Origin: the human T2T-CHM13v2.0 reference genome, Homo sapiens
Length of the DNA stretch: 64,000 bases
Reading direction: 5' to 3' (one strand)
Assembly: GCF_009914755.1 (NCBI RefSeq)
Contig: NC_060931.1
Shown here: positions 27,359-51,585 of the stretch, one piece after another
Layout: each line of letters starts with the position of its first letter
Position numbering within the stretch: position 1 is the first letter of the stretch
Made by a program: the position numbers and the translations under genes
The notes under the pieces: generated by a model
What the model was told of the DNA's origin: nothing
Database searches by the model: none
Seen by the model: the letters and a program-made list of their open reading frames with translations, nothing else

Positions 27359-27463
27359 AAACAAACTTTGGGTCAACAAGGAAAGATCACGAGTGGGGAG
27401 GGTGAATGGGTGATTCACCTCATGGATCTCCCTGGCAGCTCTTGCACTTCCTTGATCAATCTG

Positions 27464-27470
27464 TATATAA
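27464..27470 (+). promoter_or_regulatory. PIP: PIP TATA box
   Basis: TATATAA 70 nt upstream of the ATG. Confidence 0.85.
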
Positions 27471-27533
27471 GAAATGTGCTGGGCACCTGGGACACCACTT
27501 CTCTGGGACACATTGCCTTCTGTTTTCTCCAGC

Positions 27534-27628
27534 ATGCGCTTGCTCCAGCTCCTGTTCAGGGCCAGCCCTGCCACCCTGCTCCTGGTTCTCTGCCTGCAGT
27601 TGGGGGCCAACAAAGCTCAGGACAACAC
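27534..27628 (+). CDS. PIP: Prolactin-induced protein (GCDFP-15), exon 1 (signal peptide)
   Basis: MRLLQLLFRASPATLLLVLCLQLGANKAQDN(T). 95 nt, donor GTGAGC, phase 2. Confidence 0.98.
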
Positions 27629-29230
27629 GTGAGCCATGCCCTTCTCCTCCCCACAAAAAAAATTGCAGGGAGGGCTCCTCTCCCAGTCTGGAAATTACAT
27701 ATCTCTTTCTGAGAATTTCTTTCAACTTCCCAGAACTCTAGTCCCAGGAGCTCCCATGGATCTCCTGCCAGGTTCCACTTCTTGTCCTCTTAGGAAGCCC
27801 CACCAACTCCTCTCACATTTTTGCTGGGTGTTTCTGCATTGCCAGTGGAAATAAAGCTCCAAATGTACCTACAGGCTGTAATTAGTAGTTAGTCTTCATC
27901 TAACATGCTGATCCACATCTTGTTCATAATTTATACCTTTGTTCAGATTTCTGCTCAGTAAACTTTACCTTCTCACACCTTGCCTCCTAGAAGAGAAGCA
28001 TAACAGGTCTGTGAATTCCAATGGCAGCTTAGGGCAGCTTTGGCAGGACTGGCTAAAGGACCAGAGGCCCTGGCCACTGCCCTGTGGTCTGAGATTGAGC
28101 TAGACTGGCAGCTTAGACATTCTTCCTAACCTGAAGTCTGAAGATGAATATGATGACCTCTTGCTCTCACGTATACTGGGACCTGAGAGCACAGGTTCAG
28201 AAGTCAACTTATTGAGAACACATGTGTGAAGGAAGCAGAAAAATTGGAGCAAGTAAAATAAAGTAGAAAATGGAGCCAAGGGTCTGGGAGAAAGCAGCGA
28301 TACCCAATCTAGGGAGTTTTCTCTATAGCAGTAGGGTTTATAATGCTGGGTTTCTGGGTTGTGATCTTGGAGGTACTCTCTATGGCATGGTCAGATATCC
28401 TGTCCTGGAGGAAACTGTTCAGGGTTTTGACAAGCTAATGTAATGGAGGCAAGTGTCCCAAGAAACCCTGCATGGGGACAGGTTCAGATCCCACCCCATT
28501 CCCGCCAGATGACAGTCCACTTAGCCCTGAAGGGCAGCAAGGTATTCAAATAAGCTATGCTAATTAGGTTATCAACCATCCATCCTGATTTGCCCAGAAC
28601 TTTCCTGGTTGTAGCACTGCAACTCTGCCCTCCCCCGCCACCTCCACAACCCATTCTGGAAAAGACCTCAGTCCTGGGTAAACTGAGATGGTTAGTCACT
28701 CGAACTAAGCTGGTCATCCTATCAATCTGAAACTCATATACAAATGGGAGAGATTTTGAAGTTGCTTAGGTATTTATACCCTTTTCCTGTGCACTGGGCA
28801 CTACAGCAGTTGGCACCAAAAAATAGAATCTCTCTAAGATGCTTTGCCCCAAGAAAATGGGGCTGTGAGACACTGTGGGCTAAGAATCTCAATTCCCTTC
28901 TGTCCCACACAATAACAAAGGTCCGTAGCCGGGAGTTTCTAGGGACGAGAAAATAACTCTCCTGGCCCCGAACCCAGTCCTCATTGACTGAAGAAGAACA
29001 TTTGACCATTTTATTTGTCTCCATTTCCTTTCCTTTTCAGATTGCAGTGTATGGTCTAAATGTAGAGTAGTATCTAAAGTTCCCAAACATGGCCATATGT
29101 CCAAATTTCCTAAGGAGCTAAATAAATACAAATTCCTAAACCCTACCTGGGGACCACAGAAGGAGGATCTTCAAAGATGCTCCTACAAATACCTCCAGTG
29201 CATTGAGATGTTTGCTGGGTTTTTAAAATT

Positions 29231-29595
29231 TTTTATTATTTTATTTTATTTTTCCATAAGTTACTGGGGTACAAGTGGTATTTGGTTACATGAGTAAGTT
29301 CTTTAGTGGTGATGAGATTTTGGTGCACCCATCACCCGAGCAGTATACACTGCACCATATTTGTAGTCTTTTAGCCCTCACCCCTCTCCCACTCTTCCCC
29401 GCAAGTCCCCAAAGTCCATTGTATCATTCTTATGCTTTTGAGTCCTCAAAGCTTAGCTCCCACATATCAGTGAGAACATACGATGTTTGGTTTTCCATTA
29501 CTGAGTTACTTCACTTAGAATAATAGTCTCCAATCTCATACAGGTCACTGCAAATGCTGTTAATTCATTCCTTATTATGGCTGAGTAGTAGTATT

Positions 29596-29657
<62 letters not shown>

Positions 29658-30028
29658 ACAGTTTCTTTATCCACTCGTTGATTGATGGGCATTTGGGTTG
29701 GTTCCACAGTTTTATAATTGTGAATTGTGCTGCTATAAACATGTGTGTGCAAGTATCTTTTTTGAATAATGACTTCTTTTCCTCTGGGTAGATACCCAGT
29801 AGTGGGATTGCTGGATCAAATGGTGGTTCTATTTTTAGTTCTTTAAGGAATCTCCACACTGTTTTACATAGTGGTTGTAGCAGTTTACATTCCCGTCAGC
29901 AGTATAGAAGTGTCCCCTGATCACTGCATCCACGCCAACATCTACTGTTTTATGATTTTTTGATTACGGCCATTCTTGCAGGAGTAAGGTGGTATCGCAT
30001 TGTGGTTTTGATTTGCATTTCCCTGATC
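29231..30028 (-). mobile_element. L1PB-like 3' fragment in PIP intron 1
   Basis: ORF2 C-terminal peptide and 3' UTR on the minus strand. Approximate TSD GTTTGCTGG on both sides. Confidence 0.9.
29601..29655. repeat. Perfect (AT)27 microsatellite
   Basis: 55 nt of uninterrupted alternating A/T. Confidence 0.98.
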
Positions 30029-30210
30029 AAGAGGTTTGCTGGTTTAATGTGATTCTGTTGCTAGAAAATTTTCTCCTAATAATGACTTGAGCCCTCCTAC
30101 TCAGTAGACAACCACCAGAGCCTGTAGGATGTTATCAGGAAGTGGCATGTGGTATTGTACATTTTTTCTTTTTAAAAACTTGTTTTTGGTCAATGGAAGG
30201 GAAGAAGATG

Positions 30211-30390
30211 CTCGTTCATTGATGGGCATTTGGGTTGGTTCCATGATTTTGCAATTGTGAATTGTGCTACTATAAACATGCATGTGCAAGTATCTTTTCT
30301 AAATAATGACTTCTTTTCCTCTGGGTAGATACCCAGTAGTGGGATTGCTGGATCAAATGGTAGTTCTACTTTTAGTTCTTTAAGGAATCT
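30211..30390 (-). mobile_element. Isolated internal L1PB-like fragment
   Basis: Homologous to 29674-29852. No tail or TSD seen. Confidence 0.85.
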
Positions 30391-30614
30391 TAAAGTGTCC
30401 TAGTTGTTTTATTAAACAAAATTAAATCTGTGTGAAGTTACCAATCCAATCAACACATGAAAATTCCAGGGGATTCCAATGCTGAACAATTGATCCAAGC
30501 CCCATAATTTCCCTCCCTTGCCCATCCTGTGCCCCTTGCCCTGTTCATGGCTCCCCCCTCACTCAAAGATTGGTCTCTGATCCTGGTGTTCTGATTCTCT
30601 CTTCCCACAATCAG

Positions 30615-30720
30615 TCGGAAGATCATAATAAAGAATTTTGACATTCCCAAGTCAGTACGTCCAAATGACGAAGTCACTGCAGTGCTTGCAGTTCAAACAG
30701 AATTGAAAGAATGCATGGTG
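30615..30720 (+). CDS. PIP: PIP exon 2
   Basis: Acceptor TCAG, RKIIIKNFDIPKSVRPNDEVTAVLAVQTELKECMV, donor GTAAGT. 106 nt. Confidence 0.98.
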
Positions 30721-31314
30721 GTAAGTAGAGGACTGGGGGCGTGACTTCAAAAGATAATTCAACTCCTTGATTATAAACATAATTTAATCTCTCACTTTAA
30801 TAATGTACAGTGTACTTAATGAAACATTCTCACTTATGTTATGCTACTTGAGACTCAGAACAACTGTGGGAGCTTGGGACAGATGACTTCTCATTTTCCA
30901 GATGAAGAAGTTCGAATCCAGAGAAGTCTAGGATAAATAAGAAGGAAAGGAAGAAGGAATAGGAAGTGAGAAAGAGGGAAAAAGAAAAAAGTGTAAGAGC
31001 TAGTAGAGAAGCAGTTAGAGTCCTTCCAAGGTCCTGAGCATGTTTAGTTTAGGATGGAGGGAGGGGAGTTCTCAGAAGAGAAAGCAGCAACTCCACACCA
31101 TAGGTTGAGGTGGGTGGGCAGAAGAGGACATGCAGGATATGACTCCTCCTCTCCAGTAAGCACTGAGCGACTCTACTGTCCTCTTGCCTTCTTCTGCTCC
31201 TTTGCTCTGGGTCACCAGAAGTGGACTCTTGTTCCAGCCTCCCCACCCTGACAAGGAGCTCGTAATCATCTCCTCCTTTTCCCCACGTTCAGAAGTCCAA
31301 TCTCTGAACAAGGT

Positions 31315-31476
31315 CAGAGGTTTTCAAATGGTAATGTGTCTAAAACTCACTCGGGGATCTTGTTAAAATTCAGAGTTTCATTCAGCAGGTCTGGGGAGAG
31401 ATTAGAACTTCTGGATTTTAACAGACGCCCAAGGTACACCAAGGCTGTGCCCAAAGGATCACATTTTTGAGCAGCT
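31315..31476. mobile_element. MER5A-like DNA transposon
   Basis: GGGGATCTTGTTAAAATTCAGA...CAGCAGGTCTGGGG...CACATTTTTGAGCAGC. Confidence 0.7.
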
Positions 31477-32601
31477 TGGGATTAGAACATTATCCCTCCT
31501 GTCTAGCTGCCAAGGGCCAGAAGTCAAATAGACTTATGCAGTTATTAATCCACAGTGACTCTTCCCTGGGACACTGGTTGTGTGTCCTTTTCCTAGTCAT
31601 TGATCTCAGATGTCACAAGCATGCAAACTGCCCCCACTACCTTTGTTCTAGGGCCAAGACCCATGCATCTCCCATCTCCCCTACTCCCTCCCCAGACCCT
31701 TCATGAAGGACACCTTCTATCAGGCAGCACAAGTATTTCCTTACAACATAAGTTTCCTAATTCAAATGAGACTTAAGGACAATGATTACATGTAAAACAA
31801 CATTGAGAACATGAAGATTGCTATTCAGTCAACTGCATTCTAGAAATATCCCCACACCTGTAAAGAAAAATTCCTGGTCAATGAGCAAAGAATATCACAG
31901 CTGCTTTGTCAAATTTTTCTATTTTCAGTCCAAGAATCTGAGACATGTACACTAATTTGGGGTAGGAGCAAGGCTGAATCATAATTTTTCAACTCTGTAT
32001 TTTGTTTATCACAAACACAGGTGAGAATGAGAATAAGAACATGTACATAATGTGTACATAAAATTTTTGTGAAAATGGTGGTTTCTGGTGGTAATAGTTA
32101 ATGGTAGTGGTAGGTATAATAAGATATGTTTGAATCAATAAAATTACATGTGACATAATTTTGTGCTTTTGTGATTAATAAAAGTATGCTTTTAAGAATC
32201 ATGCTAGTACTCTAAAATAAAGCAATCTTTTCAAAACCCACCTAAGCACAACTAAAAGAATAAGAAATCTTTAGACTAACTGACTTTGCAAACTAGAAAT
32301 AATTTACAGGAAAGGAAATTTTGTTAATTCTAGTCAACAAATTTTTATTTGTGGCTTCATTTTTCAAAGTATAACTATTTTTAAATTTTTATTAAAATAT
32401 ATTTATATAACTATAAAATTCTTACCATCTAATCCTCATTTTTTATCATTTATAATGTTTTCTGTAACTGAATTTTTGAAAAAGTGAGGTTTAGACTCAT
32501 ATTTATTTATTTTAGAATTAGAATAGAATATACCTACAATCGTATATTTGAATATAAAGATTGCATAATCCTTTAAAGCTGAAGGAAACTTGTGGCAAAA
32601 A

Positions 32602-33822
<1,221 letters not shown>

Positions 33823-34495
33823 TTAAACGTTAACTGGACAAAATCCTCTGACTCCACTGAAATTTATATATACAATAATCTGGGATCTTGAATTGCAAAG
33901 CACTCAAGTTAAAAAGAAATTTACATTCAAGATGTTATTTGCTTATCTAACAGCCAGGTTTGGTAGTTAATTGTTTCCACCTCATACCTGAGGAAAGTGA
34001 GAGTGAGAGGCCTCTCATCACCAAAGGTCACCAAGTCAGAGAGGAGCACAGATGGGGCTTGGTCACAGCTCTGACAACAAGGCCTGACATTGGCTCCTAC
34101 ACGCAAGTGGCCAGGCTGCTGTCTCACCAGGTCTCAGAGTAAACGTGATTGCAGGTCGATTCCTGAAACCTCTGGCTGGTGACTAAGGCAAGCCTGCTCC
34201 TCAGCTGGACAGCTGCCCTGGATGAGCTCTCCTTGCCCTGTGGATTCACTTGCATCCCTATCTCCTCCTGAGCTTCTCCACACTGCTAAGGCAGGAGTTT
34301 GAGGGCATTGGAAGGGAAAACCTTCTGACCTAGACTTTGGCTCCTGAAATGATACTACAACAGTAGACTCCCCCTTGCCCTAGGCCCACCTCCACCCCCA
34401 CTCTTCTCCTCCGGCTTTTCCCTCTCCTATTTTTCCCTCCCTTACCCATTCCCCAAAATAACAATGAATTCCCCCTCCCACCTTCTCCTCACCAG

Positions 34496-34610
34496 GTTAA
34501 AACTTACCTCATTAGCAGCATCCCTCTACAAGGTGCATTTAACTATAAGTATACTGCCTGCCTATGTGACGACAATCCAAAAACCTTCTACTGGGACTTT
34601 TACACCAACA
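34496..34610 (+). CDS. PIP: PIP exon 3
   Basis: Acceptor CCAG, VKTYLISSIPLQGAFNYKYTACLCDDNPKTFYWDFYTN, donor GTAAGT. 115 nt, phase 0 to 1. Confidence 0.98.
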
Positions 34611-34938
34611 GTAAGTACAGAAGTTGTCCAAGGAGGGAACTACCCACCAGCCACCAGGGAGGAGAAACTATAAACAGAAACATGGCTGCGAACCGAGCAG
34701 GACCAGGACCTCAGGGCAGAAGGACAGAAGGGAGGGAGGGAAGAGCATGGGGAGAGCAGATGGGGAAGGCACCCAGGTTCTAAGACAGAGGCATTGAGTG
34801 CAAAAAGTTGATACAGGAGACAAATTTGCAAAGGATTTGGGGAAACTGAACCCCAGGGGGCAGATGCCTGATATGAGTAGAAAAGACAGGACATGGCCGG
34901 GGTGTCTGAGAGATGATCTCCGTCCCTGTCTTTTTCAG

Positions 34939-35063
34939 GAACTGTGCAAATTGCAGCCGTCGTTGATGTTATTCGGGAATTAGGCATCTGCCCTGATGAT
35001 GCTGCTGTAATCCCCATCAAAAACAACCGGTTTTATACTATTGAAATCCTAAAGGTAGAATAA
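34939..35063 (+). CDS. PIP: PIP exon 4 (coding part)
   Basis: (R)TVQIAAVVDVIRELGICPDDAAVIPIKNNRFYTIEILKVE*. Exons sum to 441 nt = 146 aa + stop. N-glycosylation sequon N105-R-T spans the junction. Confidence 0.98.
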
Positions 35064-35141
35064 TGGAAGCCCTGTCTGTTTGCCACACCCAGGTGATTTC
35101 CTCTAAAGAAACTTGGCTGGAATTTCTGCTGTGGTCTATAA

Positions 35142-35147
35142 AATAAA
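35142..35147 (+). terminator. PIP: PIP polyadenylation signal
   Basis: AATAAA 78 nt after the stop, followed by a GT/T-rich downstream element. Confidence 0.9.
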
Positions 35148-36017
35148 CTTCTTAACATGCTTCTCCATGTTCTGTTGTATCTCCAAAATCTGCTCCTGAA
35201 GAACCCCAGATTACCTGAAATTTCTAGAACATTTGTCTTTCAAAGAACCTTTACTGAGGAGATTGTACGGGTTCTCACTGCCCATTGGTATGAAGAGGGA
35301 GAGAAGAAGAAACTGGGAAGAGGAGCTATGCTCACAGAGAGGAAAAGCAGTGGCCCTAAAGTTCACGGCACAGGAGTGGCAGAGCCAGGGCAGGCACCAA
35401 GCCTCCCTGTTGCTTGACCTCTCTCCATCCCACTGCCCTCCAGCAACAGCTCAGATCCCAGAAGACAGGAGTCCTGTTGCATGCAGCAGAGTCAGGGATG
35501 GAGTCCATGGCCCCCTAAATGAGCAGTAGCATTCTATGCTATTCTGTTGCTTGTTTTCAATGGATTGTGACACTCAGGGATATCAGGGTCCTGTGCAGCT
35601 CTGCCTGAGGAGCTCAGGCATAATAGAGGAGTAAAGGGGCAGAGGGAGCCCTGAGGGGCTTCATCCCAGAGGGCCAGCCCATAGAAGTGGAATATGAGCA
35701 AGGATCAGGTGCACGAAGTGGGCAGAGGGCATTCTAGTAGATAGGACGCAGGCACCAAGAGCCCAAAGCATGAAATAGTGGCTTGCTCAGGGCAGGTAAA
35801 CACTTTCATATTGGGCAGGATTAAGTATACATGGAAGAGTTAGAAGCAGATCTGGCAAGAGGACAGGAGCAAAATCAGGAGAGGCCGAGTGAATCTGGGC
35901 AAGAAAGTGGGACCATATCCCCTAGGCCAGTGATCCTAAATGAGAATCAAAATCCAGGGAGGAAAATACAGTCATTGGAAAAGATCATTTTTTATATTAA
36001 TTAGGATTGTAACATTG

Positions 36018-39189: not shown

Positions 39190-41330
<2,141 letters not shown>

Positions 41331-41551: not shown

Positions 41552-42609
41552 TTTTTGAATAAGTAATAAATGAATGGAAGGAAGGGAGGGAGGAAAGGAG
41601 AAGAGAAATTAGTTTAATGAGTTTGAAAAACATAGGGATAAATAGCAGAGTAATCCAAGTAAGAGAAGACCTGCTGCATAGCACCTGGTATTTGGGAGCT
41701 GGCCCTCTCAATGCATGGTGAATCTTGTAGAAAATTCAAAATGAATGGATGGAAGCAGCCCTCCCTGGTCTTGCTGTCACCTTAAGGCATCTCAAGGACC
41801 TTGTTAGTTTCAGCACTCTAGTTCTCTGGAAAGACTCTACAGGGGTAAGAGCACAGCTGTCCCAACTCATCCACCCTTGGACTTCACCTCGCCATCTGAT
41901 ATGGTTCTCCCACTTGGATGTTAGGTGGGCAATTCCATGGGTTCTCTAGTCGTCTTAGCTTTCTAAGACGTTCTTAAGACCACATGTTCTCCTGCAGATG
42001 ACTAGAGATGATCACAGGGTCCTTCAAAGATGGATTCTGACAACTGCCCCAACATCTGAATTTCCAGCAAGAGGAAGCAGGCTGAGCAGTAACCAAAGCT
42101 AGAAAAATGGAGACCTGGGACAACAGGACCTTTCCTAAGAAGCTTCAGGATTGCAGCTCCCACACATATAATTTAAACCCAAGCCCCCTTAGAGGGGCCA
42201 ATACACAGAAAGGTCTTGCTTACTGACAGTATCTTAAGAAATAGATACCAAAAATATCTGGTCTACCCTCTTCTCATCTGATTTTTTCCTATTTCTGAGG
42301 CTTGAATTCTCATGAAACATACTCTATACTCTATAGAGGGCTATCATTTCTTACAGAAGACTCATTGTACCTGAAGATGCAAACCAGGAGGGCTGAGTAG
42401 GAACATTAGTGTCAAGTCATTCACTCAACTAGAGTAAAATTTAGAGTTGAAGTAACTGGCATTGGTAGAAAGATAAGACACCATGTCATCTAGAGGACAA
42501 AAAGATAAGAATATACATTTCATAGATCCTACAGACCCAGAGCAAGTATTGGGAAATAGAAGTGAAAAAGATGCTGTTTAGAAAAGTTAAGGCAGAATCC
42601 ATCCTGCTG

Positions 42610-42618
42610 TTCCAGGAA
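42610..42618. promoter_or_regulatory. STAT5-type GAS element upstream of the PIP-like copy
   Basis: TTCCAGGAA matches TTCYNRGAA, 265 nt upstream of the ATG. Confidence 0.45.
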
Positions 42619-42874
42619 CATTCTAATCTGATATTGGCAAACAAGGGAAAACAACTGAACTAATTCTTTCCTCATTCCATTCCAATGTAAAATTCCAGCT
42701 GAATGTTGACATTTCTCCAAGAAAAAAATTCATGGTGGTAATTAGGGAAGTTTCAAGGTCTGATGATTTTGGTTGAGTGGCCTGCCCAAATGTCACAATG
42801 TTCTCTTGCTGTAGTTATGAAGAATAATTTGGGTGCCTGGGTGCACAGTTCTCTGGGCATCAAATTTCTCCAGC

Positions 42875-42969
42875 ATGCATGCTCTTCAGATTCTGTTCAA
42901 GCCCTGTCTTGTTGCCCTGCTCCTGGTTCTCTGCCTGAGGCTGGGGACCAGCATAGCTCAGGAAGAATT
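42875..42969 (+). pseudogene. PIP-like paralog exon 1 (signal peptide)
   Basis: MHALQILFKPCLVALLLVLCLRLGTSIAQEE(L): 16/32 identical to PIP exon 1. Same 95-nt length, same TTTCTCCAGCATG context, donor GTAAGC, phase 2. Confidence 0.92.
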
Positions 42970-44490
42970 GTAAGCCACCACTTTCTCCTTGTTGCAGAAA
43001 ATCTTCCAACGGGGACACATCTCCCAACCCAGAAATCAATATGGTGCCCCTAGGGATTATTTTACCACTCCAAAGGGGACACATTCTGGGTATTCTCACT
43101 AAAGATGTCTCTTAGTCTCACTCTTTTCCTATTCAGATCCTATTGTGGGGGTTACTGCATTCATGTCTTATTACTACTTGTATTTTAATTCATTTTTCTA
43201 TCCTAAGTTTATCATTGGCATCATTTTCTCCTAAATGAAAAGCATGGGCAGAGATGTGGGCTTAATCAATACCTGTGGGATGAGCTTTGGATAAGATGCC
43301 TGAGCTGCAAGAGAGGGGCCATGGCCCTGGTCTTTACTGGGGTTACAAGGTTGTGCTGACCACTAACTCATACAATTGGTCTCATTGGAAACAGTGCTCT
43401 CTATCTCATTAAGATCTGTGTCATACACTGGGGCTGGGACCTACAAGACCTGAGCAGGTTTCTCTAAGTAAGGAAAAAGTAGAAACATGCTCCTGGACTC
43501 CACCTTTTCCTGGATTTGTTCCTAAATGCAACATGTCCTTGCATAAATGCGACACAGCTGGTCTCCAGGTCTATACTGATTTGCCAAAACGGAGGAAAAG
43601 AAATGACAGATTCCAGTTCCTTAAGTGGAAAGGAGAACATTGAAACGGGACTCTGTCCCTTGGCAAGAGCAAAGTACTAAGATCCAGAATGAAGCCAGCA
43701 GGTCCTTAGGAGACATGGACGTGTAGCAGACAGAATGTGGAGAAAGGAGTATCTAGCAGATGGAAATGGAGCCATGGAGATTTTGGTGAAGAAGGGGTTC
43801 TTGCCAAGCCTGGATGTTTCTCTAAGGAGAAGAGAAGCAAAGAGGATGTGGGGGTGGATATATGGAGTAACACAAAATGTGTGTGTGCTGGGTTTTGGTT
43901 GACTAAACTTCTACTTAGTTTCCCCTCTACTTAGTGAGTTGGACAAAGTTGAACTATGTTGATCATTATGTTAAACTTTAATTCATTGGTGTGATATGTT
44001 TATCAGACTCATAGAATTTCTTATCCTTCTACTAGTTATACCAGTATAAGAAAATGAACTTTCATGGATTTGGGGATGATTCCATAAGAAAAATCAAAAG
44101 GAGAATCTCAGGCTAAAGTAGACCATGCAACCAAATCACTTCCTGCTTCAAACAACATGGTGGAGATTCAACTGAGTATCCATGATGAAGGAAAAGCAGT
44201 CCCTCAGTCTGGCTCCCTGCCCTCATCAGTCCACCAGGAATATGACCTCTTTTCCTCTGGCCTCCATTTCCCCTTCCTATCAGATAGGGGCATCTTGGCT
44301 GGACACACAGAGCCCACAGGCACAAGTCATGCACAGAGGATCCTTATGAGTGACAGCATTGACTTATGTGCTTCCTCACTCCCTGCACCCCTCTGTTCAC
44401 TCTGTCCTCCTGCTTCCATTCTCCCTCCTGGGACACCCCTGTCCTACACTTTCCCTGACTTTGGGTTTCTCCTTCTTTTGGCATATACAG

Positions 44491-44599
44491 ACAGAACATA
44501 ATTTTTCTGAGCATGACAATCCCTGAATCTGTAAAGCCAGAGGAAATATTTTTGCTAACACTCATGGTTACAAATAACAATAGGTATAAATATGTGGAG
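44491..44599 (+). pseudogene. PIP-like paralog exon 2
   Basis: Acceptor TACAG, open frame QNIIFLSMTIPESVKPEEIFLLTLMVTNNNRYKYVE (PIP: RKIIIKNFDIPKSVRPNDE...), donor GTAACT. 109 nt, phase 2 to 0. Confidence 0.88.
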
Positions 44600-44964
44600 G
44601 TAACTGAAGAATTGGAGGGAAGGTTGGTGGGAAAGAGAAGAGAAATATCACAATAAAGAACATTGGTCGTCATTACTGATTGTATGTGAAACAGTTTAAC
44701 ATCTTGCCAAATGCTTCACCTACACATGATTTTGTGTACATTAGCCTTGAACCTCAGAACAACTCTGTTAGGAATGTACATGTTATCAATTCCATTTTGA
44801 AGTTGAAGAAATTGTGTTATGAAAAAGATGAATGAGTGGAGGCTTTTAACCATAGGGTCAGGACTCTAATTCATGAGGGGAGGGTAGCAGTGGGGAGATT
44901 AGGAAGAGGAAAAAAAAGAAATGAGAGGAAAGCAATCCAAATGCAGATGAAAAGAAAGATGGAC

Positions 44965-45656
44965 AGAGAAACACAAATCAAAACCACAATGAGATACCAT
45001 CTTACACCAGTAAGAATGGCTACTACTAAAAAGTCAAAAAATAACAGAAGCTAGTGAAGCTGCAGAGAAAAGGGAATGTTTACACACTTTTCATGGGAAT
45101 GTAAATTGGTTCAGCCACTTTGAAAAGCAGTTTGAAGATTTCTCAAAGAACTTAAAATTGAGCCACCATTCAACCCAGCAATCCCATTACTGGGTACATA
45201 CCGAAAGGAAAATAGACCATTACACCAAATGGCCACTTGATATGTTCACCACCATGCTATTCACAATATTAAAGACATGGAATCAACTAAGCGCCCATTG
45301 ATGGTGGATTGGATAAAGAAAATGTGGCACATAGACACCATGGAATACTATGCAGCCATAAAAAATAAAATCATTTTCTTTGCTGCAGTGTGGATGGAAC
45401 TGGAGACCATAATTCTAAGCAAATTAATGAAAGAACAGAAAACCAAATATTGCCTGTTCTCACTTATAAGTAGTAGCTAAACATTGAGCACCCATGGACA
45501 TAAACAAGAAAACAGACAATGCAGACTGCTAGAGGGAGGGAGGGCAAAAGGGAGGAATGGGTCAAAAAACTACCTATTGGGTACTATGCTCACTACCTGG
45601 ATGCAAAATACCCATGTAACAAATCTGCTCATATACCCCTGTATCTAAAATGAAAG

Positions 45657-45692
<36 letters not shown>
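44965..45692 (+). mobile_element. L1 (L1PB/L1MA-like) 3' fragment in paralog intron 2
   Basis: ORF2 C-terminal peptide, 3' UTR, A-tail. AAAGATGGA occurs on both sides. Confidence 0.88.
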
Positions 45693-45694
<2 letters not shown>

Positions 45695-45904
45695 TGGATT
45701 AGACTGAGTGACAATGCTCAGAGACTTCTATTGGAACCATGTTCCCACCCACCCCTACTCGCCCCAACCAGCCCATGCAGCGATGAGGATGAACCTAGGA
45801 GACCCAGCTCAACAGGCTGTGGCAGATGTAACAGAAGCTTCAGGGATGTGGTCATTGTGATCTCTCTCAAAATTGAGAGACTTACCATCACACAAGAACT
45901 GGCT

Positions 45905-45912
45905 ATATATAT

Positions 45913-45947
<35 letters not shown>

Positions 45948-46916
45948 TACACATATATATATATATACTTTATGTTCTGGGGTACATATGCAGAATGTGC
46001 AGTTTTGTTACATAGTTACACACATGCCATGGTGGTTTGCTGCACCCATCAACCTGTCACCTACATTAGGTATTTCTCCTCATGCTATCTGTCCCTTAGC
46101 CCCCCTCCCCCTGACAGGGCCTGGTGTGTGATGTTCCCCTCCCTGTGTCCATGTGTTCTCATTGTTGAACTCCCACTTATGAGTGAGAACATGCGGTGTT
46201 TGGTTTTCTGTTCTTCTGTTAGTTTGCTGAGAATGATGGTTTCCAGCTTCATCGATGTTCCTGCAAAGGACATGAACTCATCCTTTTTTATGGCTGCATA
46301 GTATTCCATGGTGTATGTGTGCCACATTTTCTTTAACCAGTCTATCATTGATTTGCGTTGGCTCCAAGTCTATTGTGAATATCATTCATTTGCATTGGCT
46401 CCAAGTCTATTGTGAATAGACATACGTGTACATGTGTCTTTATAGTAGAACGATTTATACTTCTTTGGGCATATACCGAGTAATGGGATTGCTGGGCCAA
46501 ATGGTATTTCTAGTTTTAGATCCTTGAGGAATTACCACACTGCCTTCCACAATGGTTGAACTAATTTACACTCCCACCAACACTGTACAACCATTCCTAT
46601 TTTTCCACATCCCCTCCAGCATCTGTTGTTTCCTGACCTTTTAATGATCACCATTCTAACTGGTGAGAGATGGTATCTCATTGCGGTTTTGATTTGCATT
46701 TCCTTAATGACCAGTGATGATGAGCTTTTTTTCATGTTTGTTGGCTGCATAATTGTCTTCTTTTGAGAAGTGTCTGTTCATCTCCTTTGCCCACTTTTTT
46801 ATGGGGTTTCTTGTTTTTTTCTTGTAAAGTTGTTTAAGTTCTTTGTAGATTCTGGATATCAGTCCTTTGTCAGACGGATAGATGGCAAAACTTTTCTCCC
46901 ATTCTGTAGGTTGCCT
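45905..46916 (-). mobile_element. L1PA 3' fragment whose tail is a (TA)n/(CA)n microsatellite
   Basis: TSD AAGAACTGGCT at 45894-45904 and 46917-46927. Internal ~37-bp tandem duplication at ~46345-46418. Confidence 0.92.
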
Positions 46917-47898
46917 AAGAACTGGCTTTTTTGAAGTCATGTCCTCCATTTCCTTTCCCTGCTCTCTTCACTGAGCATTCAGAACCCCTAAACCCTTCTG
47001 CTTTGCCATCTTTGATACCAGTCCCCAGTTCCTTCAAGGTTTCTTTAGGCTTTTTGGAAAGCAGATGCAAACAGATGGGAAAATTGCAGAGTTACTAAGA
47101 ACCCTAAGAGAAATACAAATAGTACTTAACACTTATGACATTTATCGAAATATGGTGACAGTAGAAATGCCTCTGAGAAGCCCCTTCTCCAGAGGTCTTC
47201 TTTGGTACTGTCTCAGGAAGACATCGGATATTTTTTCTTCCCTAGTCTGGCCTCAGCAGATTTCTTCTTCCGTCTTCAGAAACTCAGTCAGTGTTTAACT
47301 AAAAGTTTTATAATTTGATTGGCAGAAGAAAAATAAGTGCTAAATACTACTCAGTCAAATGCTTTCAGAATCCAAGTGTGTTTATTTGCACAATAAACAT
47401 GGTACTTTACATTCTGAAAGCTCTAACATTCGCAAAGCACTCATGAGCTCATACGAAGGAGACAGGTGAGTATCCATGCTTCCATCTCGCAAATGTCATG
47501 TTACAAAGCAGGAAAGCAGGACAGGTGAGATGATAAACTCTGTTTTTGTTTGTTTGGTGGGTTGTTTTTGTTTCTGTTTATTCACCACACCAGAGTAGAC
47601 AAACTAATGTCTCCAATCTCCATATAACTTCCTCTTGGTTCAGTGAGCAGTTAATTAAAATAATTTCCTACTAACTCCAATTTGGAGAACCTCAGCTCTA
47701 GGCTGGATGAAAGGCAACTGATGCCTAAATGCAGTCCAACACTGGTGCCCTTTTACTCCTTCAAGTACTGAAATAAAGAGTCCATTTCACTAATAAGCTG
47801 ATGAGTTAAATGCTAGCTGGACCCAGACAGGTGTGTTTACCCCTGCTTCTTGAAACAGAAACAAATGTGACATGTGACTTCCCTAAACCAAACGTTTA

Positions 47899-48235
<337 letters not shown>

Positions 48236-48263
48236 GAAAAGATTGTTTTTAACAATGCAGTTA

Positions 48264-48565
48264 GGCCAGGCGTGGTATCTTATGCCTGTAATCCCAGCAC
48301 TTTGGGAGGCCAAGGCAGGAGGACCCGCCTGGCCAACTTGGAGAAACCCTATCTTTACTAAAAAAAAAATACAAAAATTAACTGGACGTGGTGGTGGGCA
48401 CCTGTAATCCCAGCTACTTGGGAGGCTGAGGCAGGAGAATCGCTTGAACCAGGAAGTGGAGCTTGCAGTGAGCCGAGATCGTGACATTGCACTCCAGCCT
48501 GGGCAACAAGAGTGAAACCCATCTCAAAAAAAAGGAAAAACAAACAAACAAACAAAATAAAAAAA
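48264..48565 (+). mobile_element. AluS (small left-arm deletion)
   Basis: Dimeric Alu with A-rich tail. Confidence 0.9.
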
Positions 48566-48772
48566 CAACAATGCAGATAAAGTTGAGCGTGGTATATAAT
48601 GACAATTTTTTTTAAGTTGCCTATGATCAAGTGTAGCAGTGAATGTATAAAGAGTATAACAGCTGGAGAATAGTCCCTGAGTGTCCCCTTCACCTGGGCC
48701 TAATGCTTAACCCAGGGCTGCCTCAGCCAGATCTACACTCTCTCTAACCCTTCTCCCCATTCCTCTCCTCAG

Positions 48773-48883
48773 ATTAAAACCAGTATTGAGGCCAATCCAA
48801 GCATTAGCTGCTCTTACAGTCGTTTTATTTACACTGTGTGTGTGGTAGACAAAAGTTCTACTGGGAACTAACAACTCCGTCCA
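48773..48883 (+). pseudogene. PIP-like paralog exon 3 (1-nt frameshift)
   Basis: Strong acceptor CCTCTCCTCAG and donor GTAAGT. IKTSIEANPSISCSYSRFIYTVCV, then shifted frame RQKFYWELTTPS (PIP: ...YTACLCDDNPKTFYWDFYTN). 111 nt, needs +1 for phase 1. In-frame TAA at 48869-48871. Confidence 0.9.
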
Positions 48884-49235
48884 GTAAGTGAGGACACTTC
48901 CTGCCTGAACATAAGTATCCAGATTAGGGGGAGTGCTAGGAGAGGTCACAGTAAAAAGGGAAAAGCAGGAGGTGGCAGAAAGCAAAGGAGCAGAGTATTG
49001 CAATAAGAGCGAGACACAAGACAGGCAGGCAGTGTGGGCAGGGGCTCAACGTGAGGGCAGGGAGATTGGGCAACAACTGCTGTGCCTTGTGTATAAGACT
49101 AAGCAGTGGGAGCTGAGTTCCAGAGGCAGTGAAAGGGGGGATAAGGTGTGCGGTGGGTGGAGCTTAAGTGAGAAGACCAGAAGTGAAGTGGTGTGGAGCC
49201 CAGTGGTCTATCACTCTTCTGATTCCTCTCCCCGG

Positions 49236-49460
49236 AAGATATAAACAATAGAAGAGATGCTGAAGTTATGTCAGATGAAGATATGGGCCATCCTAATGAG
49301 GAACTGGACAAGACAACCGGTTACTACACATTCGTGGAGAGCACTGTCATCCTAACCCTGCACTGGAAAGTCGGCTCTGACTTCCCACCCCTAGAAGGTC
49401 TCCTTTTTAGGAGAACCATCCCTGAGTTTGAGGGTATCTGGGTGGATGGTAACATAAACT
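49236..49460 (+). pseudogene. PIP-like paralog exon 4
   Basis: 352 nt after exon 3 (PIP intron 3 is 328). Pyrimidine tract + CGG/AAG. (K)DINNRRDAEVMSDEDMGHPNEELDKTTGYYTFVE. ACAACCGGTT shared with PIP exon 4. CATAAACTTC versus PIP AATAAACTTC. Confidence 0.72.
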
Positions 49461-51585
49461 TCCTGCAACTTCTCAGCATCCCCTCTATGTCTTTTCCCCA
49501 AAAACTTACTTCCGTAACTGCCCAGATATCCCAAGAATTCTTAAAGCACTGGTCTTACAAGAAACTTTCACAGATATGATATAAGACACATGTATTCCAT
49601 AGTGAACAGGAGAGAGAGAAGGCAGCAATTATTCTTACCATTTGACATAGAAGGGAAAATGGCCAGAGAAAGTATAATCAACTGTCTCCAGGGGTACACA
49701 GAAAATTAAGGGTGGAAGTGAGAAAGATTCCAAGTTTCCCTATCCTGTTAGTCCAACTATATCCAGCTGCCCCTTCCAGTGACCTGAAAGGTCAACTACT
49801 CAGAAGTCCTAAAATGATTATACCTGCTTCTTTTTAACTGGTGGCAAAAAAAATAGACTCACTGAACTTCAGTTGTACTGGGTTCCTAATCATGACACAC
49901 TCCTCCCTGTGTTCACGTCCTTGTCTTTCCTCATAGTAAAGCAAAACTCAGAAAGGTAGATAATGCCAAGTGTCAGCAGAGAATGAGGAGATAGGGGAAC
50001 CATTAAGCACTGCTACTGGGAACATATAAATAGGTGTAGCCATTTGGAGAACAATCTGGCATTTCTTAGTCAAATTAATTATATACAGACCCTTTGACCC
50101 AGCACCTCCACAATTGAAAATGATGGTAAGAGAGACCATTTCCATCCATGGATTTCTAGGCCAGTACAGTTTAGCTATCAAGAACACAGAAACATTTAAT
50201 AACCATTATTTCAAAATATGTGTCACATCTTGAAAGACATCACCATAACCCTAAAGGGTGTGACCCCCAAGTGGTCTCCTCAGCCGCTTATTTATGAGAT
50301 TTTTCCAGCATGCTATAAGGCCAGTGGTTTCCTGGTGATAGAGTTATAAAAAAAGAAAAACAGTAGATTCCTTGATTATGTGTCCATTATGGCAACTGTA
50401 TCATTTAAGAAAAAGGTTCTCTTGGTCCATAAAGATGTTACATGGGATCCCATGTCTAGAAACCAGATATTCTGTGGGCCTTCAGATAGCAGAGCTGTCC
50501 AAAATACTGTAGGCAGGAAAGATACATCTATAGCTAGAATATATATCATTCTCAGTAAAGATAAACTGCTGCCCCTTCTAAGGTCAAAGAGATTCAATAT
50601 AATCATTGTTTTGTAAAATGGTTGGTTCATCTCCTTGAGACATAGTACCCTATTGAAGTCCCAGCCTTAATCTCTGTTGCTGAAGGGTCGGCAGCAGTAA
50701 TACCTAAATCACTTTTGGTGAGAGGGAATCCTTACTATTGGGTATATGCATAATATCAATCACTGCCTCATTAGCCATTAAACAAGCATTGGAGAAGCTA
50801 AGGACATCCATTGAACCAGTCCTCCTGTGTTCCTAATTGTTTGCTCTCTCCTCTGTGTCAGATACTTTCTTATGAGCACCAACATGAGACACAAAGATCC
50901 ACTTTGTGTTCACATCCAGAGGTTCATTCAGATGGCCTTCTTAACTGGTGGCAAAAAAATAGACTTAAAAAAAATAGAATTTCAGGCAGACATCCCTGTG
51001 CAAAATATTAATATTCTTGTTCCTACCAGATTCCTGACCGGGCAGAGCCAAGAGATCTCCCACCGCTCAAGCATCCAGGTATCCTGTTTATGACCAGTTG
51101 TGCTGCTTGTAGCACTGCCTACCAAGAGTATTTTCACCAAGCCATGCTCCTCTAGGACACTCCTGAGTAAAATTTTAGTGTGGTAATAGTCCACCATTGG
51201 CTCATAACAACAAATTGAGCCTATCTGTGAATCACATTTTTGTTTTGCCCCTCTAAAACCTGGTCATAGGAACACCCCATGAGGCTGTAAGTACAGTCTA
51301 AAGGAGCAGTGTTAGTTCTGCAGATGTAGTTCATATGGAGTTTGAACCACTGTCTTCTGTTACTGAGGGCCTCTGGATCAGGTTGAGTCCAACCTCAACT
51401 GCACCATTTCCATTGTGTGATGGATTTGTGCTGTACCCACTAAATTTATAATTTGTGGGTCTGCCAGTACAGGTCATGATGAGCAGTTCTGGCCCCATAG
51501 CCACTTGATGTTTCATGGTCAGCTATTGGGTCTCTACAGAATCCATGGCCATGCCATGTGCTCCTTTTCTAAAAAATAGTTCTCT

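What the first reader, a model, noticed from the sequence alone, without database searches (positions are those of the whole stretch)
42600..49579. Hidden four-exon PIP-family paralog in tandem behind PIP
Seen: a complete second gene model. Exons are 42875-42969, 44491-44599, 48773-48883 and 49236/49239 onward, with the same phases (2,0,1) as PIP. Exon 1 is the same length (95 nt), intron 3 is similar (352 vs 328 nt), and five of six splice sites are canonical. Repaired protein: MHALQILFKPCLVALLLVLCLRLGTSIAQEEL-QNIIFLSMTIPESVKPEEIFLLTLMVTNNNRYKYVE-IKTSIEANPSISCSYSRFIYTVCVCRQKFYWELTTPS-KDINNRRDAEVMSDEDMGHPNEELDKTTGYYTFVE... The mature part is highly diverged from PIP yet has only one clear frame lesion. 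Known: human PIP is usually treated as single-copy, whereas mouse has a Pip/Sva/Sval cluster of secreted paralogs. Inference: an ancient duplicate that evolved as a functional secreted protein for a long time and died recently, or is still partly alive. I cannot check whether it is already annotated.
Basis: partly seen in the sequence, partly recalled or inferred. Interest (0 to 1): 0.88.

Follow-up and report, generated by a model that had tools for sequence, protein, structure and literature searches.

The report
Dead SVA-like gene beside human PIP
About 7.7 kb behind the human PIP gene lies the decayed four-exon remnant of a second, anciently duplicated secreted-protein gene of the kind rodents and ruminants still use (seminal vesicle antigen-like genes); it is a real but ordinary dead gene.

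Summary
Four collinear + strand exon relics (42875-42969, 44491-44599, 48773-48883, 49239-49360) have PIP's exon layout. All splice sites are canonical if exon 4 starts at 49239. A profile of 30 SVA-like (SVAL-clade) proteins hits all five reading pieces in order (E 1e-8 to 0.06).

It is not a recent copy of PIP. Trees place it with the rodent Sval and artiodactyl paralogues, and an AU test rejects a place in the PIP clade (p 0.0004). DNA similarity to PIP survives only at exon 1 and its flanks.

- a frameshift in a (TG)5 run over the family's C-x-C motif;
- the normal stop lost;
- two conserved cysteines replaced, and the invariant NICP motif now reads MGHP;
- TATA box not kept;
- no poly(A) signal for 1.4 kb.

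None of the 39 organism-named relatives is a primate, and the human genome holds no other copy.

Best reading: an unprocessed, unitary-type pseudogene of the SVA/SVAL lineage. "Died recently" is not shown. RefSeq does not annotate it. I could not check GENCODE or the subscription papers most likely to mention it. Interest is modest.

The parts
42809..42874 (+). 5' flank (proximal promoter and 5' UTR relic) homologous to the PIP promoter
   Evidence: It is part of the only non-repeat blastn match between the two loci: 27461-27702 against 42809-43042, 66% over 244 nt, E 3.7e-25. The flank alone has 46 of 64 aligned bases identical. PIP's TATATAAG at 27466 aligns to a stretch reading TTATGAAG, so the canonical TATA box is not kept.
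42875..42969 (+). Exon 1 relic: start codon plus signal peptide, 95 nt, phase 2, donor GTAAGC
   Evidence: Pfam SVA E 2.6e-4, profile 2-29. SVAL-clade profile E 1.1e-8, 32.7 bits. 71% identical to beaver P0037 residues 1-31. 76% nucleotide identity to PIP exon 1. All 8 of 8 highly conserved signal-peptide columns are kept. It is the best match of P0037 in the whole human genome.
44491..44599 (+). Exon 2 relic, 109 nt, AG acceptor, GTAACT donor. The conserved Cys is replaced by Tyr (TAT, 44591-44593) and one extra codon is present.
   Evidence: SVAL-clade profile E 1.3e-3, positions 32-71. blastp to P0034 46% (E 8e-5) and to P0037 55% (E 2e-4). Shuffle test against PIP exon 2: z 5.5, 0 of 1000 shuffles reach the score. 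Pfam gives no SVA hit here, only A2M PF00207 at E 0.037.
48773..48883 (+). Exon 3 relic, 111 nt, AG acceptor, GTAAGT donor, read in two frames
   Evidence: First frame (48773-48841): SVAL profile E 7.6e-4, positions 66-92. Second frame (48820-48882): E 1.1e-3, positions 84-104. Pfam SVA E 0.021 on the second frame, profile 81-102. The F-Y-W motif is kept.
48835..48846 (+). Frameshift site: a (TG)5 run over the family's C-x-C motif
   Evidence: The sequence shows the run directly. The two frames overlap here. A loss of 4 nt (two TG units) would restore both the family's exon length of 115 nt and the C-x-C motif. That is an inference from the alignment. A 1-nt loss or a 2-nt gain would restore the frame as well.
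48869..48871 (+). Premature TAA in the frame as it now stands, ending a 100-codon ORF
   Evidence: Translation of the joined exons in frame 0. The stop lies 12 nt before the last exon junction.
49239..49360 (+). Exon 4 coding relic (acceptor AG at 49237-49238). The family's A-E-V-V-S and G-Y motifs are recognisable. NICP reads MGHP, with Cys replaced by Gly (GGC, 49286-49288).
   Evidence: SVAL-clade profile E 0.058, positions 111-144. blastp to the second half of P0008 40% (E 0.002) and to P0037 37% (E 0.033). The end-to-end alignment finishes at the same column as P0039's C-terminus. Not significant against PIP itself or against Pfam.
49361..49579 (+). Read-through after the lost stop codon: 72 further codons to TGA at 49577-49579
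   Evidence: Translation. Family members end within 0 to 3 residues of 49360. There is no + strand AATAAA or ATTAAA between 48779 and 50776.

Best explanation
This is an unprocessed, unitary-type pseudogene: the human remnant of the SVA/SVAL branch of the PIP/SVA family (Pfam PF05326).

PIP and an SVA-like gene were already tandem neighbours on the same strand before primates, rodents and even-toed ungulates diverged. Rodents and ruminants kept and multiplied the SVA-like gene (Sva, Sval1-3 and 'PIP homolog' paralogues). It encodes a small secreted protein of about 145 residues with the PIP fold.

On the lineage to humans the gene lost its function, and what remains is non-coding DNA. The remains are an intact-looking signal-peptide exon, three recognisable mature-peptide exons with canonical splice sites, one frameshift in a short TG repeat, a lost stop codon, lost disulfide cysteines, and decayed promoter and 3'-end signals.

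Shown here: homology, exon structure, clade membership, the lesions, and the absence of a second copy in this genome. Inferred: that the ancestral gene was functional in early primates, the order and date of the lesions, and that the locus is now silent.
For: **Homology and structure.**
- Five reading pieces hit a profile of 30 SVAL-clade proteins collinearly on one strand: E 1.1e-8, 1.3e-3, 7.6e-4, 1.1e-3 and 0.058, at profile positions 1-31, 32-71, 66-92, 84-104 and 111-144.
- The PIP-clade profile (14 rows) sees only exon 1 (6.3e-7) and, weakly, exon 3 (0.66).
- Pfam SVA hits exon 1 and exon 3.
- The exon layout and splice sites follow PIP's.

**Clade.**
- In the careful tree of 58 rows the relic is sister to the rodent clade (support 78/13). 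It then joins the artiodactyl paralogues (96/87) and then P0034 (99/97). PIP proper lies apart.
- The AU test rejects relic plus PIP clade: lnL difference 47.4, p 0.0004.
- The best identity is 43% over 143 columns, to beaver P0037.

**Tandem order.**
- Two merged gene models from other species (P0008, 290 aa; P0020, 353 aa) carry a PIP-like half followed by an SVAL-like half. That is the same order as in the human window.

**Lesions.**
- Frameshift in the (TG)5 run.
- Stop lost.
- Cys to Tyr and Cys to Gly; NICP now MGHP; 15 of 24 highly conserved columns kept, of which 8 of 8 in the signal peptide and 7 of 16 in the mature part.
- TATA box not kept.
- No poly(A) signal.

**Unitary.**
- Pfam SVA over the whole genome finds only PIP's three exons at E <= 0.001.
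- Beaver P0037 finds the relic's exon 1 as its best match, and otherwise only two weak matches elsewhere (E 0.53 and 6.05).
- There are no further relics from window position 1 to TAS2R39.

**Not annotated.** The hub's RefSeq table lists only PIP in this window.
Against: - No expression data could be consulted, so silence is inferred only from the missing RefSeq model and the decayed signals.
- All six splice sites, the start codon and the whole signal peptide are intact.
- There is no in-frame stop apart from the one the frameshift creates. That is fewer lesions than a very old pseudogene usually shows.
- The relic's end branch (0.83) lies within the range of intact, fast-evolving family members, for example 0.71 for mouse Sval3. 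Its divergence alone therefore does not prove long neutral decay.
- Each Pfam match is below the curated cut-off of 23 bits when the exons are scored singly (21.4 and 15.3 bits). Exon 2 and exon 4 get no Pfam SVA hit.
- The sister relation to rodents is weakly supported (78/13).
- The AU group was named after I had seen the quick tree.
- Orthology by synteny was not tested directly, because no other mammalian genome is at hand.
Confidence: 0.9

Rival explanations
1. The locus is still partly alive. It is transcribed from the PIP-like promoter and yields either a 100-residue secreted product (signal peptide plus about 70 residues, ending at the TAA at 48869-48871) or a spliced non-coding RNA.
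For: The start codon, the signal peptide (8 of 8 conserved columns) and all splice sites are intact. The premature stop lies only 12 nt before the last exon junction. By the established 50-55 nt rule, a stop at that position would escape nonsense-mediated decay.
Against: There is no RefSeq model of any kind here (hub table). The TATA box is not kept. There is no poly(A) signal within 1.4 kb. The truncated product would lack the last strands of the PIP fold and the partner cysteine. Conserved mature-part residues are already lost upstream of the frameshift, including the Ser-to-Phe change and the Cys-to-Tyr change in exon 2.
Confidence: 0.06
2. It is a recent, primate- or human-lineage duplicate of PIP itself that diverged very fast.
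For: It sits in tandem on the same strand. Exon 1 has the same length, and exon 1 plus flanks is 66-76% identical to PIP at the DNA level.
Against: Exons 2-4 are at background identity to PIP: 55-59% against 54 +/- 6 for random pairs. Every piece is closer to SVAL-clade proteins than to PIP. The AU test rejects a place with the PIP clade at p 0.0004. Exon 1 is 71% identical to beaver P0037 but 53% identical to human PIP.
Confidence: 0.02
3. It is a chance resemblance or a repeat-derived artefact.
For: Single-exon tblastn E-values against PIP alone are poor: 24, 4.8 and 2.7.
Against: There are five collinear profile hits on one strand with E-values computed over all 4197 six-frame pieces. The blastn match at exon 1 has E 4e-25. 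The exon boundaries carry splice signals. None of the four exons lies in the masked stretches the hub lists.
Confidence: 0.01

Closest known systems
Rodent Sva / Sval1-3 genes (seminal vesicle antigen and antigen-like; for example rat Sval1 P0076 and mouse Sval3 P0096) and the beaver and ruminant 'PIP homolog' paralogues
   Same: Same clade in the tree. The length fits end to end. The motifs T-V-T-N-N, D/E-N-P-S, Y-T-x-C, F-Y-W, A-E-V-x-S and G-Y are recognisable. The gene sits next to PIP, as inferred from the merged models P0008 and P0020.
   Different: The human copy is broken: frameshift, lost stop, lost cysteines, NICP now MGHP. The rodent and ruminant genes have intact predicted ORFs. 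Per passages seen, the mouse genes are expressed in seminal vesicle and lacrimal gland (PMC5234833; PMC10589653; PMC5502090).
Human PIP (GCDFP-15), 27494-35160 in this window; solved structure 3ES6 chain B
   Same: Same family (PF05326), same four-exon layout and phases, same strand. Exon 1 and the proximal promoter are homologous at the DNA level. The SVAL profile hits 3es6_B at E 4.7e-15.
   Different: It belongs to a different, anciently separated branch (AU p 0.0004). The mature part is at background DNA identity to PIP. PIP is intact and annotated.
Unitary pseudogenes of the human genome (genes lost in primates but kept in mouse; Zhang et al. 2010, PMC2864566)
   Same: It is unprocessed, with introns kept. 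It lies in place beside its old neighbour, has no functional copy of its branch elsewhere in the genome, and has intact relatives in other mammals.
   Different: The main text of that paper holds none of 'seminal', 'Sva', 'prolactin' or '7q34'. Its supplementary lists could not be opened. Whether this locus is in such a catalogue is therefore unknown.
Alpha-2-macroglobulin family, one internal domain
   Same: The PIP profile hits proteins of about 1470 residues at about 810-915. The SVAL profile hits A2M chains at 779-905, E 0.11. The relic's exon 2 hits Pfam A2M PF00207 at E 0.037.
   Different: This is a distant domain-level likeness only. The relic is a small stand-alone four-exon gene, not part of an A2M gene.

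Membership tests
PIP/SVA family (Pfam PF05326) | Match to the Pfam SVA profile at or above the curated cut-off (23 bits) | tested here: inconclusive
   The exons could only be scored singly. Exon 1 scores 21.4 bits (E 2.6e-4, profile 2-29). The second frame of exon 3 scores 15.3 bits (E 0.021, profile 81-102). Exon 2, the first frame of exon 3 and exon 4 give no SVA hit. Each piece is below the cut-off, but the positions are collinear.
PIP/SVA family (Pfam PF05326) | Significant, collinear similarity to family members over the whole length | tested here: met
   Profile of 56 family proteins: E 1.3e-8, 1.1e-3, 6e-4, 3.8e-3 and 7.1. Profile of 30 SVAL-clade proteins: E 1.1e-8 to 0.058 for all five pieces. 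The end-to-end alignment gives 43% identity to P0037.
PIP/SVA family (Pfam PF05326) | Four coding exons with phases 2, 0, 1 and the signal peptide in exon 1 | tested here: met
   The phase after exon 3 fits only once the frameshift is allowed for. No signal-peptide predictor was run; the judgement rests on similarity (8 of 8 conserved columns).
PIP/SVA family (Pfam PF05326) | Conserved cysteines of the two disulfides. The pairing is recalled from the PIP structure entry and was not checked here. | tested here: not met
   The exon 2 Cys reads Tyr. The exon 4 Cys (30 of 30 SVAL rows) reads Gly. The second Cys of C-x-C falls in the frameshift. Only the first Cys of C-x-C is kept.
PIP/SVA family (Pfam PF05326) | Open reading frame of about 140-150 codons ending at the family's C-terminus | tested here: not met
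   There is a frameshift at 48835-48846, and the stop is lost with 72 extra codons following. It is a member by descent, not a working member.
SVA/SVAL branch, as opposed to the PIP branch | Groups with Sval and artiodactyl paralogues in a tree, and the data reject a place with PIP | tested here: met
   Support 97 (quick tree) and 99/97 (careful tree) for the clade that holds it. AU p 0.0004 against the PIP clade. Caveats: the relic has a long end branch (0.83), and the group was named after the first tree.
Unitary pseudogene | No functional copy of the same branch elsewhere in the genome | tested here: met
   whole T2T genome, six frames, exon by exon; only the best candidates are scored; the window and 16 kb beyond it.
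Unitary pseudogene | Intact orthologue at the syntenic place in other mammals; lesions shared or dated on a species tree | not testable with these tools
   No other mammalian genome is held. There is only indirect support: intact relatives in rodents and artiodactyls, and the merged PIP-plus-SVAL models P0008 and P0020.
Unitary pseudogene | Not transcribed or translated | not testable with these tools
   No RNA-seq or proteome data are available. Only the absence of a RefSeq model (hub table) and the decayed TATA and poly(A) signals bear on it.

The most novel reading that the evidence does not exclude
Humans, and perhaps all apes and monkeys, have lost the whole SVA/SVAL branch. In the mouse this branch supplies a sperm capacitation and acrosome-reaction suppressor and abundant lacrimal proteins. 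The relic may have been overlooked in annotation. The locus may still make a spliced transcript whose 100-codon ORF escapes nonsense-mediated decay, or the short TG run at the frameshift may vary in length among people.
Probability: 0.07. Interest if true: 0.5.

Novelty: new member of a known kind. Interest (0 to 1): 0.3.

Why it matters
It shows that the tandem pair of PIP and an SVA-like gene is older than the split of primates, rodents and ungulates. The human 'single-copy' state of PIP is therefore the result of a gene loss, not the ancestral state.

That matters modestly in three ways:
- For annotation, it is an unprocessed pseudogene missing from RefSeq.
- For comparative work on fast-evolving reproductive and exocrine secreted proteins, mouse SVA/SVAL biology has no human counterpart of that branch.
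- For anyone mapping reads or variants near PIP.

It opens no long-standing question. It may already be mentioned in subscription papers that I could not read.

Tried and rejected
- **tblastn with human PIP alone.** The relic's exons are not significant singly, and exon 4 is not found. PIP is too distant a probe.
- **Global DNA alignment with harsh scoring.** It was useless for exons 2-4. I replaced it with milder scoring and a random-pair control.
- **Weak profile hit at 40342-40473 (E 0.13).** I checked it as a possible third relic. It drops to E 4.5 with the SVAL profile and shows no family motif, so I rejected it as noise.
- **Further relics between the window end and TAS2R39.** None found at E below 0.1.
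- **Word-seeded search with the exon 4 ORF.** The only hit was P0006, a 103-residue ORF at 99% identity on a 1850-nt contig from source 'lgn'. It is presumably the same human stretch and says nothing about function.
- **Whole-genome search with an alignment.** Not accepted for this genome, so I used the single protein P0037 instead.
- **Literature.** Nine searches found no open paper that names a human PIP/SVA-like pseudogene.
- **Papers not held.** Yoshida 2001, Osawa 2004 and Kitano 2006 were seen only as reference-list entries. A look-up of Osawa 2004 by PubMed id failed.

Full report
**What is there.** The window is T2T-CHM13 chr7:144460001-144524000. PIP occupies 27494-35160 on the + strand.
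- 42875-42969, 95 nt: ATG in the same context as PIP's, donor GTAAGC.
- 44491-44599, 109 nt: acceptor AG, donor GTAACT.
- 48773-48883, 111 nt: acceptor AG, donor GTAAGT.
- A last block from 49236 or 49239.

Exon 1 has exactly PIP's length. Intron 3 is 352 nt against 328 in PIP. The frame needs one shift inside exon 3. There is no in-frame stop other than the one that shift creates.

**Is it more than chance?**
- With human PIP alone as probe the answer would be doubtful. tblastn gives E 24, 4.8 and 2.7 for exons 1-3 and misses exon 4.
- In shuffle tests against the matching PIP exons:

| Piece | z | Shuffles reaching the score |
|---|---|---|
| Exon 1 | 12.3 | 0 of 1000 |
| Exon 2 | 5.5 | 0 of 1000 |
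| Exon 3, second frame | 5.1 | 1 of 1000 |
| Exon 3, first part | 1.2 | 132 of 1000 |
| Exon 4 | 0.2 | 402 of 1000 |

- At the DNA level the only non-repeat match between the two loci is 27461-27702 against 42809-43042: 66% over 244 nt, E 3.7e-25. It covers the proximal promoter, exon 1 and the first 70 nt of intron 1.
- Exon 1 is 76% identical to PIP's. Exons 2-4 are 55-59% identical, which is the background for random 110-nt pairs of the window (54 +/- 6).
- Pfam's SVA model (PF05326) hits exon 1 (E 2.6e-4, 21.4 bits, profile 2-29) and the second frame of exon 3 (E 0.021, 15.3 bits, profile 81-102). Each is below the 23-bit cut-off when scored alone. Exon 2 hits only A2M (PF00207, E 0.037). 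Exon 4 hits nothing.

**Bringing in relatives.**
- A word-seeded search with PIP exon 3 showed that the protein database holds mammalian proteins.
- A profile of four PIP orthologues, run over 1.84 billion representatives, gave 61 family members at E <= 0.001.
- Compared with these, every piece of the relic matches the same few proteins at collinear positions. Beaver P0037 (145 aa) matches at residues 1-31, 33-60, 67-89, 86-100 and 112-141.
- A last word-seeded search used a profile of six such proteins plus four of the relic's own exon translations (exon 1, exon 2, the first frame of exon 3, exon 4). It returned 50 hits among 2148 candidates.
- Of those 50 hits, 39 carry an organism name. All 39 are rodents (including rat 'seminal vesicle antigen-like 1' and mouse 'seminal vesicle antigen-like 3') or camels and ruminants ('prolactin-inducible protein homolog'). 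None is a primate. One hit is an unnamed metaclust entry, and ten are short unnamed metagenome ORFs.

**Profiles over the window.**
- A profile of 56 family proteins, run over all 4197 six-frame pieces of the window, hits the relic's pieces at E 1.3e-8, 1.1e-3, 6e-4, 3.8e-3 and 7.1. The order is right and all are on the + strand.
- A profile of the 30 SVAL-clade proteins hits all five at 1.1e-8, 1.3e-3, 7.6e-4, 1.1e-3 and 0.058.
- A profile of 14 PIP-clade proteins sees only exon 1 (6.3e-7) and, weakly, exon 3 (0.66).
- The relic is therefore a family member by descent, and it is nearer to the SVA-like branch than to PIP.

**Place in the family.**
- I built trees of 58 rows: the 56 family proteins of 130-160 residues, the window's PIP, and the relic read with X at its breaks. 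Shorter, longer and merged models were left out.
- The quick tree puts the relic inside a clade of 32 rows with support 97. The clade holds the rodent SVAL group and the artiodactyl paralogues, and it lies apart from PIP proper.
- In the careful tree the relic is sister to the rodent group (78/13, weak). It then joins the artiodactyl group (96/87) and then P0034 (99/97). This order mirrors the species tree.
- An AU test rejects the best tree that holds the relic with the 18 PIP-clade rows: lnL 47.4 lower, p 0.0004.
- Two caveats apply. The group was named after I had seen the first tree, and the relic has a long end branch (0.83).
- Two merged gene models from unnamed species, P0008 (290 aa) and P0020 (353 aa), consist of a PIP-like half followed by an SVAL-like half. 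I take this as indirect evidence that PIP followed by SVAL on one strand is the old arrangement.

**The lesions.** Aligned end to end with the 30 SVAL-clade proteins, the relic fits in length and ends at the same column as P0039's C-terminus.

1. *Exon 4 acceptor.* If exon 4 starts at 49239, after the AG at 49237-49238, the frame is kept and the spacing to the A-E-V motif is exactly the family's.
2. *Frameshift.* It lies in a (TG)5 run at 48835-48844, which covers the family's C-x-C motif. A loss of two TG units would restore both the 115-nt exon length and the motif. This is an inference; a 1-nt loss or a 2-nt gain also fits.
3. *Truncated ORF.* As it stands the ORF ends after 100 codons, at the TAA at 48869-48871, 12 nt before the last junction.
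4. *Lost stop.* In the repaired frame, 72 extra codons follow to 49577-49579.
5. *Conserved columns.* There are 24 columns where at least 90% of the 30 proteins share one residue, and the relic keeps 15.
   - It keeps 8 of 8 in the signal peptide and 7 of 16 in the mature part.
   - Lost are the exon 4 Cys (30 of 30 rows; now Gly, GGC at 49286-49288) and its neighbours, so NICP reads MGHP.
   - Also lost are a Ser (30 of 30 rows; now Phe) and several more conservative changes.
   - The exon 2 Cys present in many members reads Tyr (TAT at 44591-44593).
6. *TATA box.* PIP's TATATAAG at 27466 aligns with a stretch reading TTATGAAG.
7. *Poly(A) signal.* No AATAAA or ATTAAA lies on the + strand between 48779 and 50776. 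PIP's own signal lies 79 nt after its stop.

**Only copy.**
- Pfam SVA over the whole T2T genome, in six frames, finds only PIP's exons 1-3 at E <= 0.001.
- Beaver P0037 finds the relic's exon 1 as its best match in the genome (71% identity, E 0.032). Otherwise it finds two weak matches on other chromosomes, at E 0.53 and 6.05.
- The rest of the window, and the 16 kb from its end to TAS2R39, hold no further relic. A weak hit at 40342-40473 did not stand up.

**How it most likely worked and what it is now.**
- The SVAL profile matches the solved PIP structure 3ES6 chain B at E 4.7e-15. It matches one internal stretch of alpha-2-macroglobulin weakly (E 0.11, residues 779-905).
- The ancestral gene therefore encoded a small secreted single-domain protein with PIP's fold.
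- Passages I read say three things about the mouse genes. Mouse SVA prevents spontaneous acrosome reaction and suppresses capacitation (PMC5234833). Sval2 is an abundant secreted product of lacrimal acinar cells, of unknown function (PMC10589653; PMC5502090). The mouse Sva cluster is cited as a lineage-specific expansion under positive selection (PMC2735741).
- The human locus is best read as the dead remnant of that branch: an unprocessed, unitary-type pseudogene. I put this at 0.9.

**What I cannot say.**
- *When it died.* The intact signal peptide, start codon and splice sites, and the single frameshift, argue against a very old loss. The lost stop, the lost cysteines, the decayed NICP motif, the decayed promoter and 3' signals, and the absence of any primate protein among the named relatives argue against a very recent one. 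The relic's branch length lies within the range of living, fast-evolving members, so it does not decide.
- *Whether it is transcribed.* No expression data are at hand.
- *Whether it is already described.*
  - RefSeq's T2T annotation lists nothing here (hub table).
  - Nine full-text searches found no open paper that names a human PIP/SVA-like pseudogene.
  - The three subscription papers most likely to mention it were seen only in reference lists: Yoshida 2001, Osawa 2004 and Kitano 2006.
  - GENCODE could not be consulted.

**Verdict.** The gene is an old SVA-like paralogue, not a copy of PIP. It is dead by several independent criteria. It is a new, or at least RefSeq-unannotated, member of a well-known kind. 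Interest is modest (0.3).

Noticed in passing
window 27461-27702 and 42809-43042: Between the two paralogues only the proximal promoter, the signal-peptide exon and the first 70 nt of intron 1 keep DNA similarity (66-76%). The mature-peptide exons are at background identity. This is the pattern of fast-evolving secreted-protein families: a conserved leader and a hypervariable mature part.
   Followed up: partly
window 44492-44599; proteins P0052, P0054, P0063 (about 1470 aa): The PIP/SVA family shows a distant likeness to one internal domain of alpha-2-macroglobulin. The relic's exon 2 hits Pfam A2M at E 0.037. The PIP profile hits proteins of about 1470 residues at about 810-915. The SVAL profile hits A2M chains at E 0.11. 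From recall only, Kitano 2006 proposed such an origin.
   Followed up: partly
proteins P0008 (290 aa) and P0020 (353 aa): These gene models from unnamed species fuse a PIP-like half to an SVAL-like half. They are probably read-through mis-annotations of tandem genes. They are useful as indirect evidence for the old gene order.
   Followed up: partly
window 49268-49576; protein P0006: A 103-residue ORF, 99% identical to the read-through frame of relic exon 4, is stored as a predicted protein from a 1850-nt contig (14 member sequences, source 'lgn'). It is presumably human DNA within metagenome data. The one difference may be a human variant.
   Followed up: no
window 34496-34700; protein P0001 (182 aa): A metaclust entry matches human PIP through exon 3 and then diverges from the normal exon 4 sequence; by eye it appears to read on into intron 3. 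It also has a different N-terminus. It looks like an intron-retention or mis-predicted form of PIP.
   Followed up: no
window 40342-40473 (+): A weak family-profile hit (E 0.13, profile 64-102) lies between PIP and the relic. It shows no family motifs and drops to E 4.5 with the SVAL profile. I judge it to be noise.
   Followed up: yes
window 44600-48772: Intron 2 of the relic (4173 nt) holds several repeats that also match repeats in and around PIP: L1-like at 46152-46761, and Alu-like at 47936-48240 and 48262-48551. None touches an exon relic.
   Followed up: no
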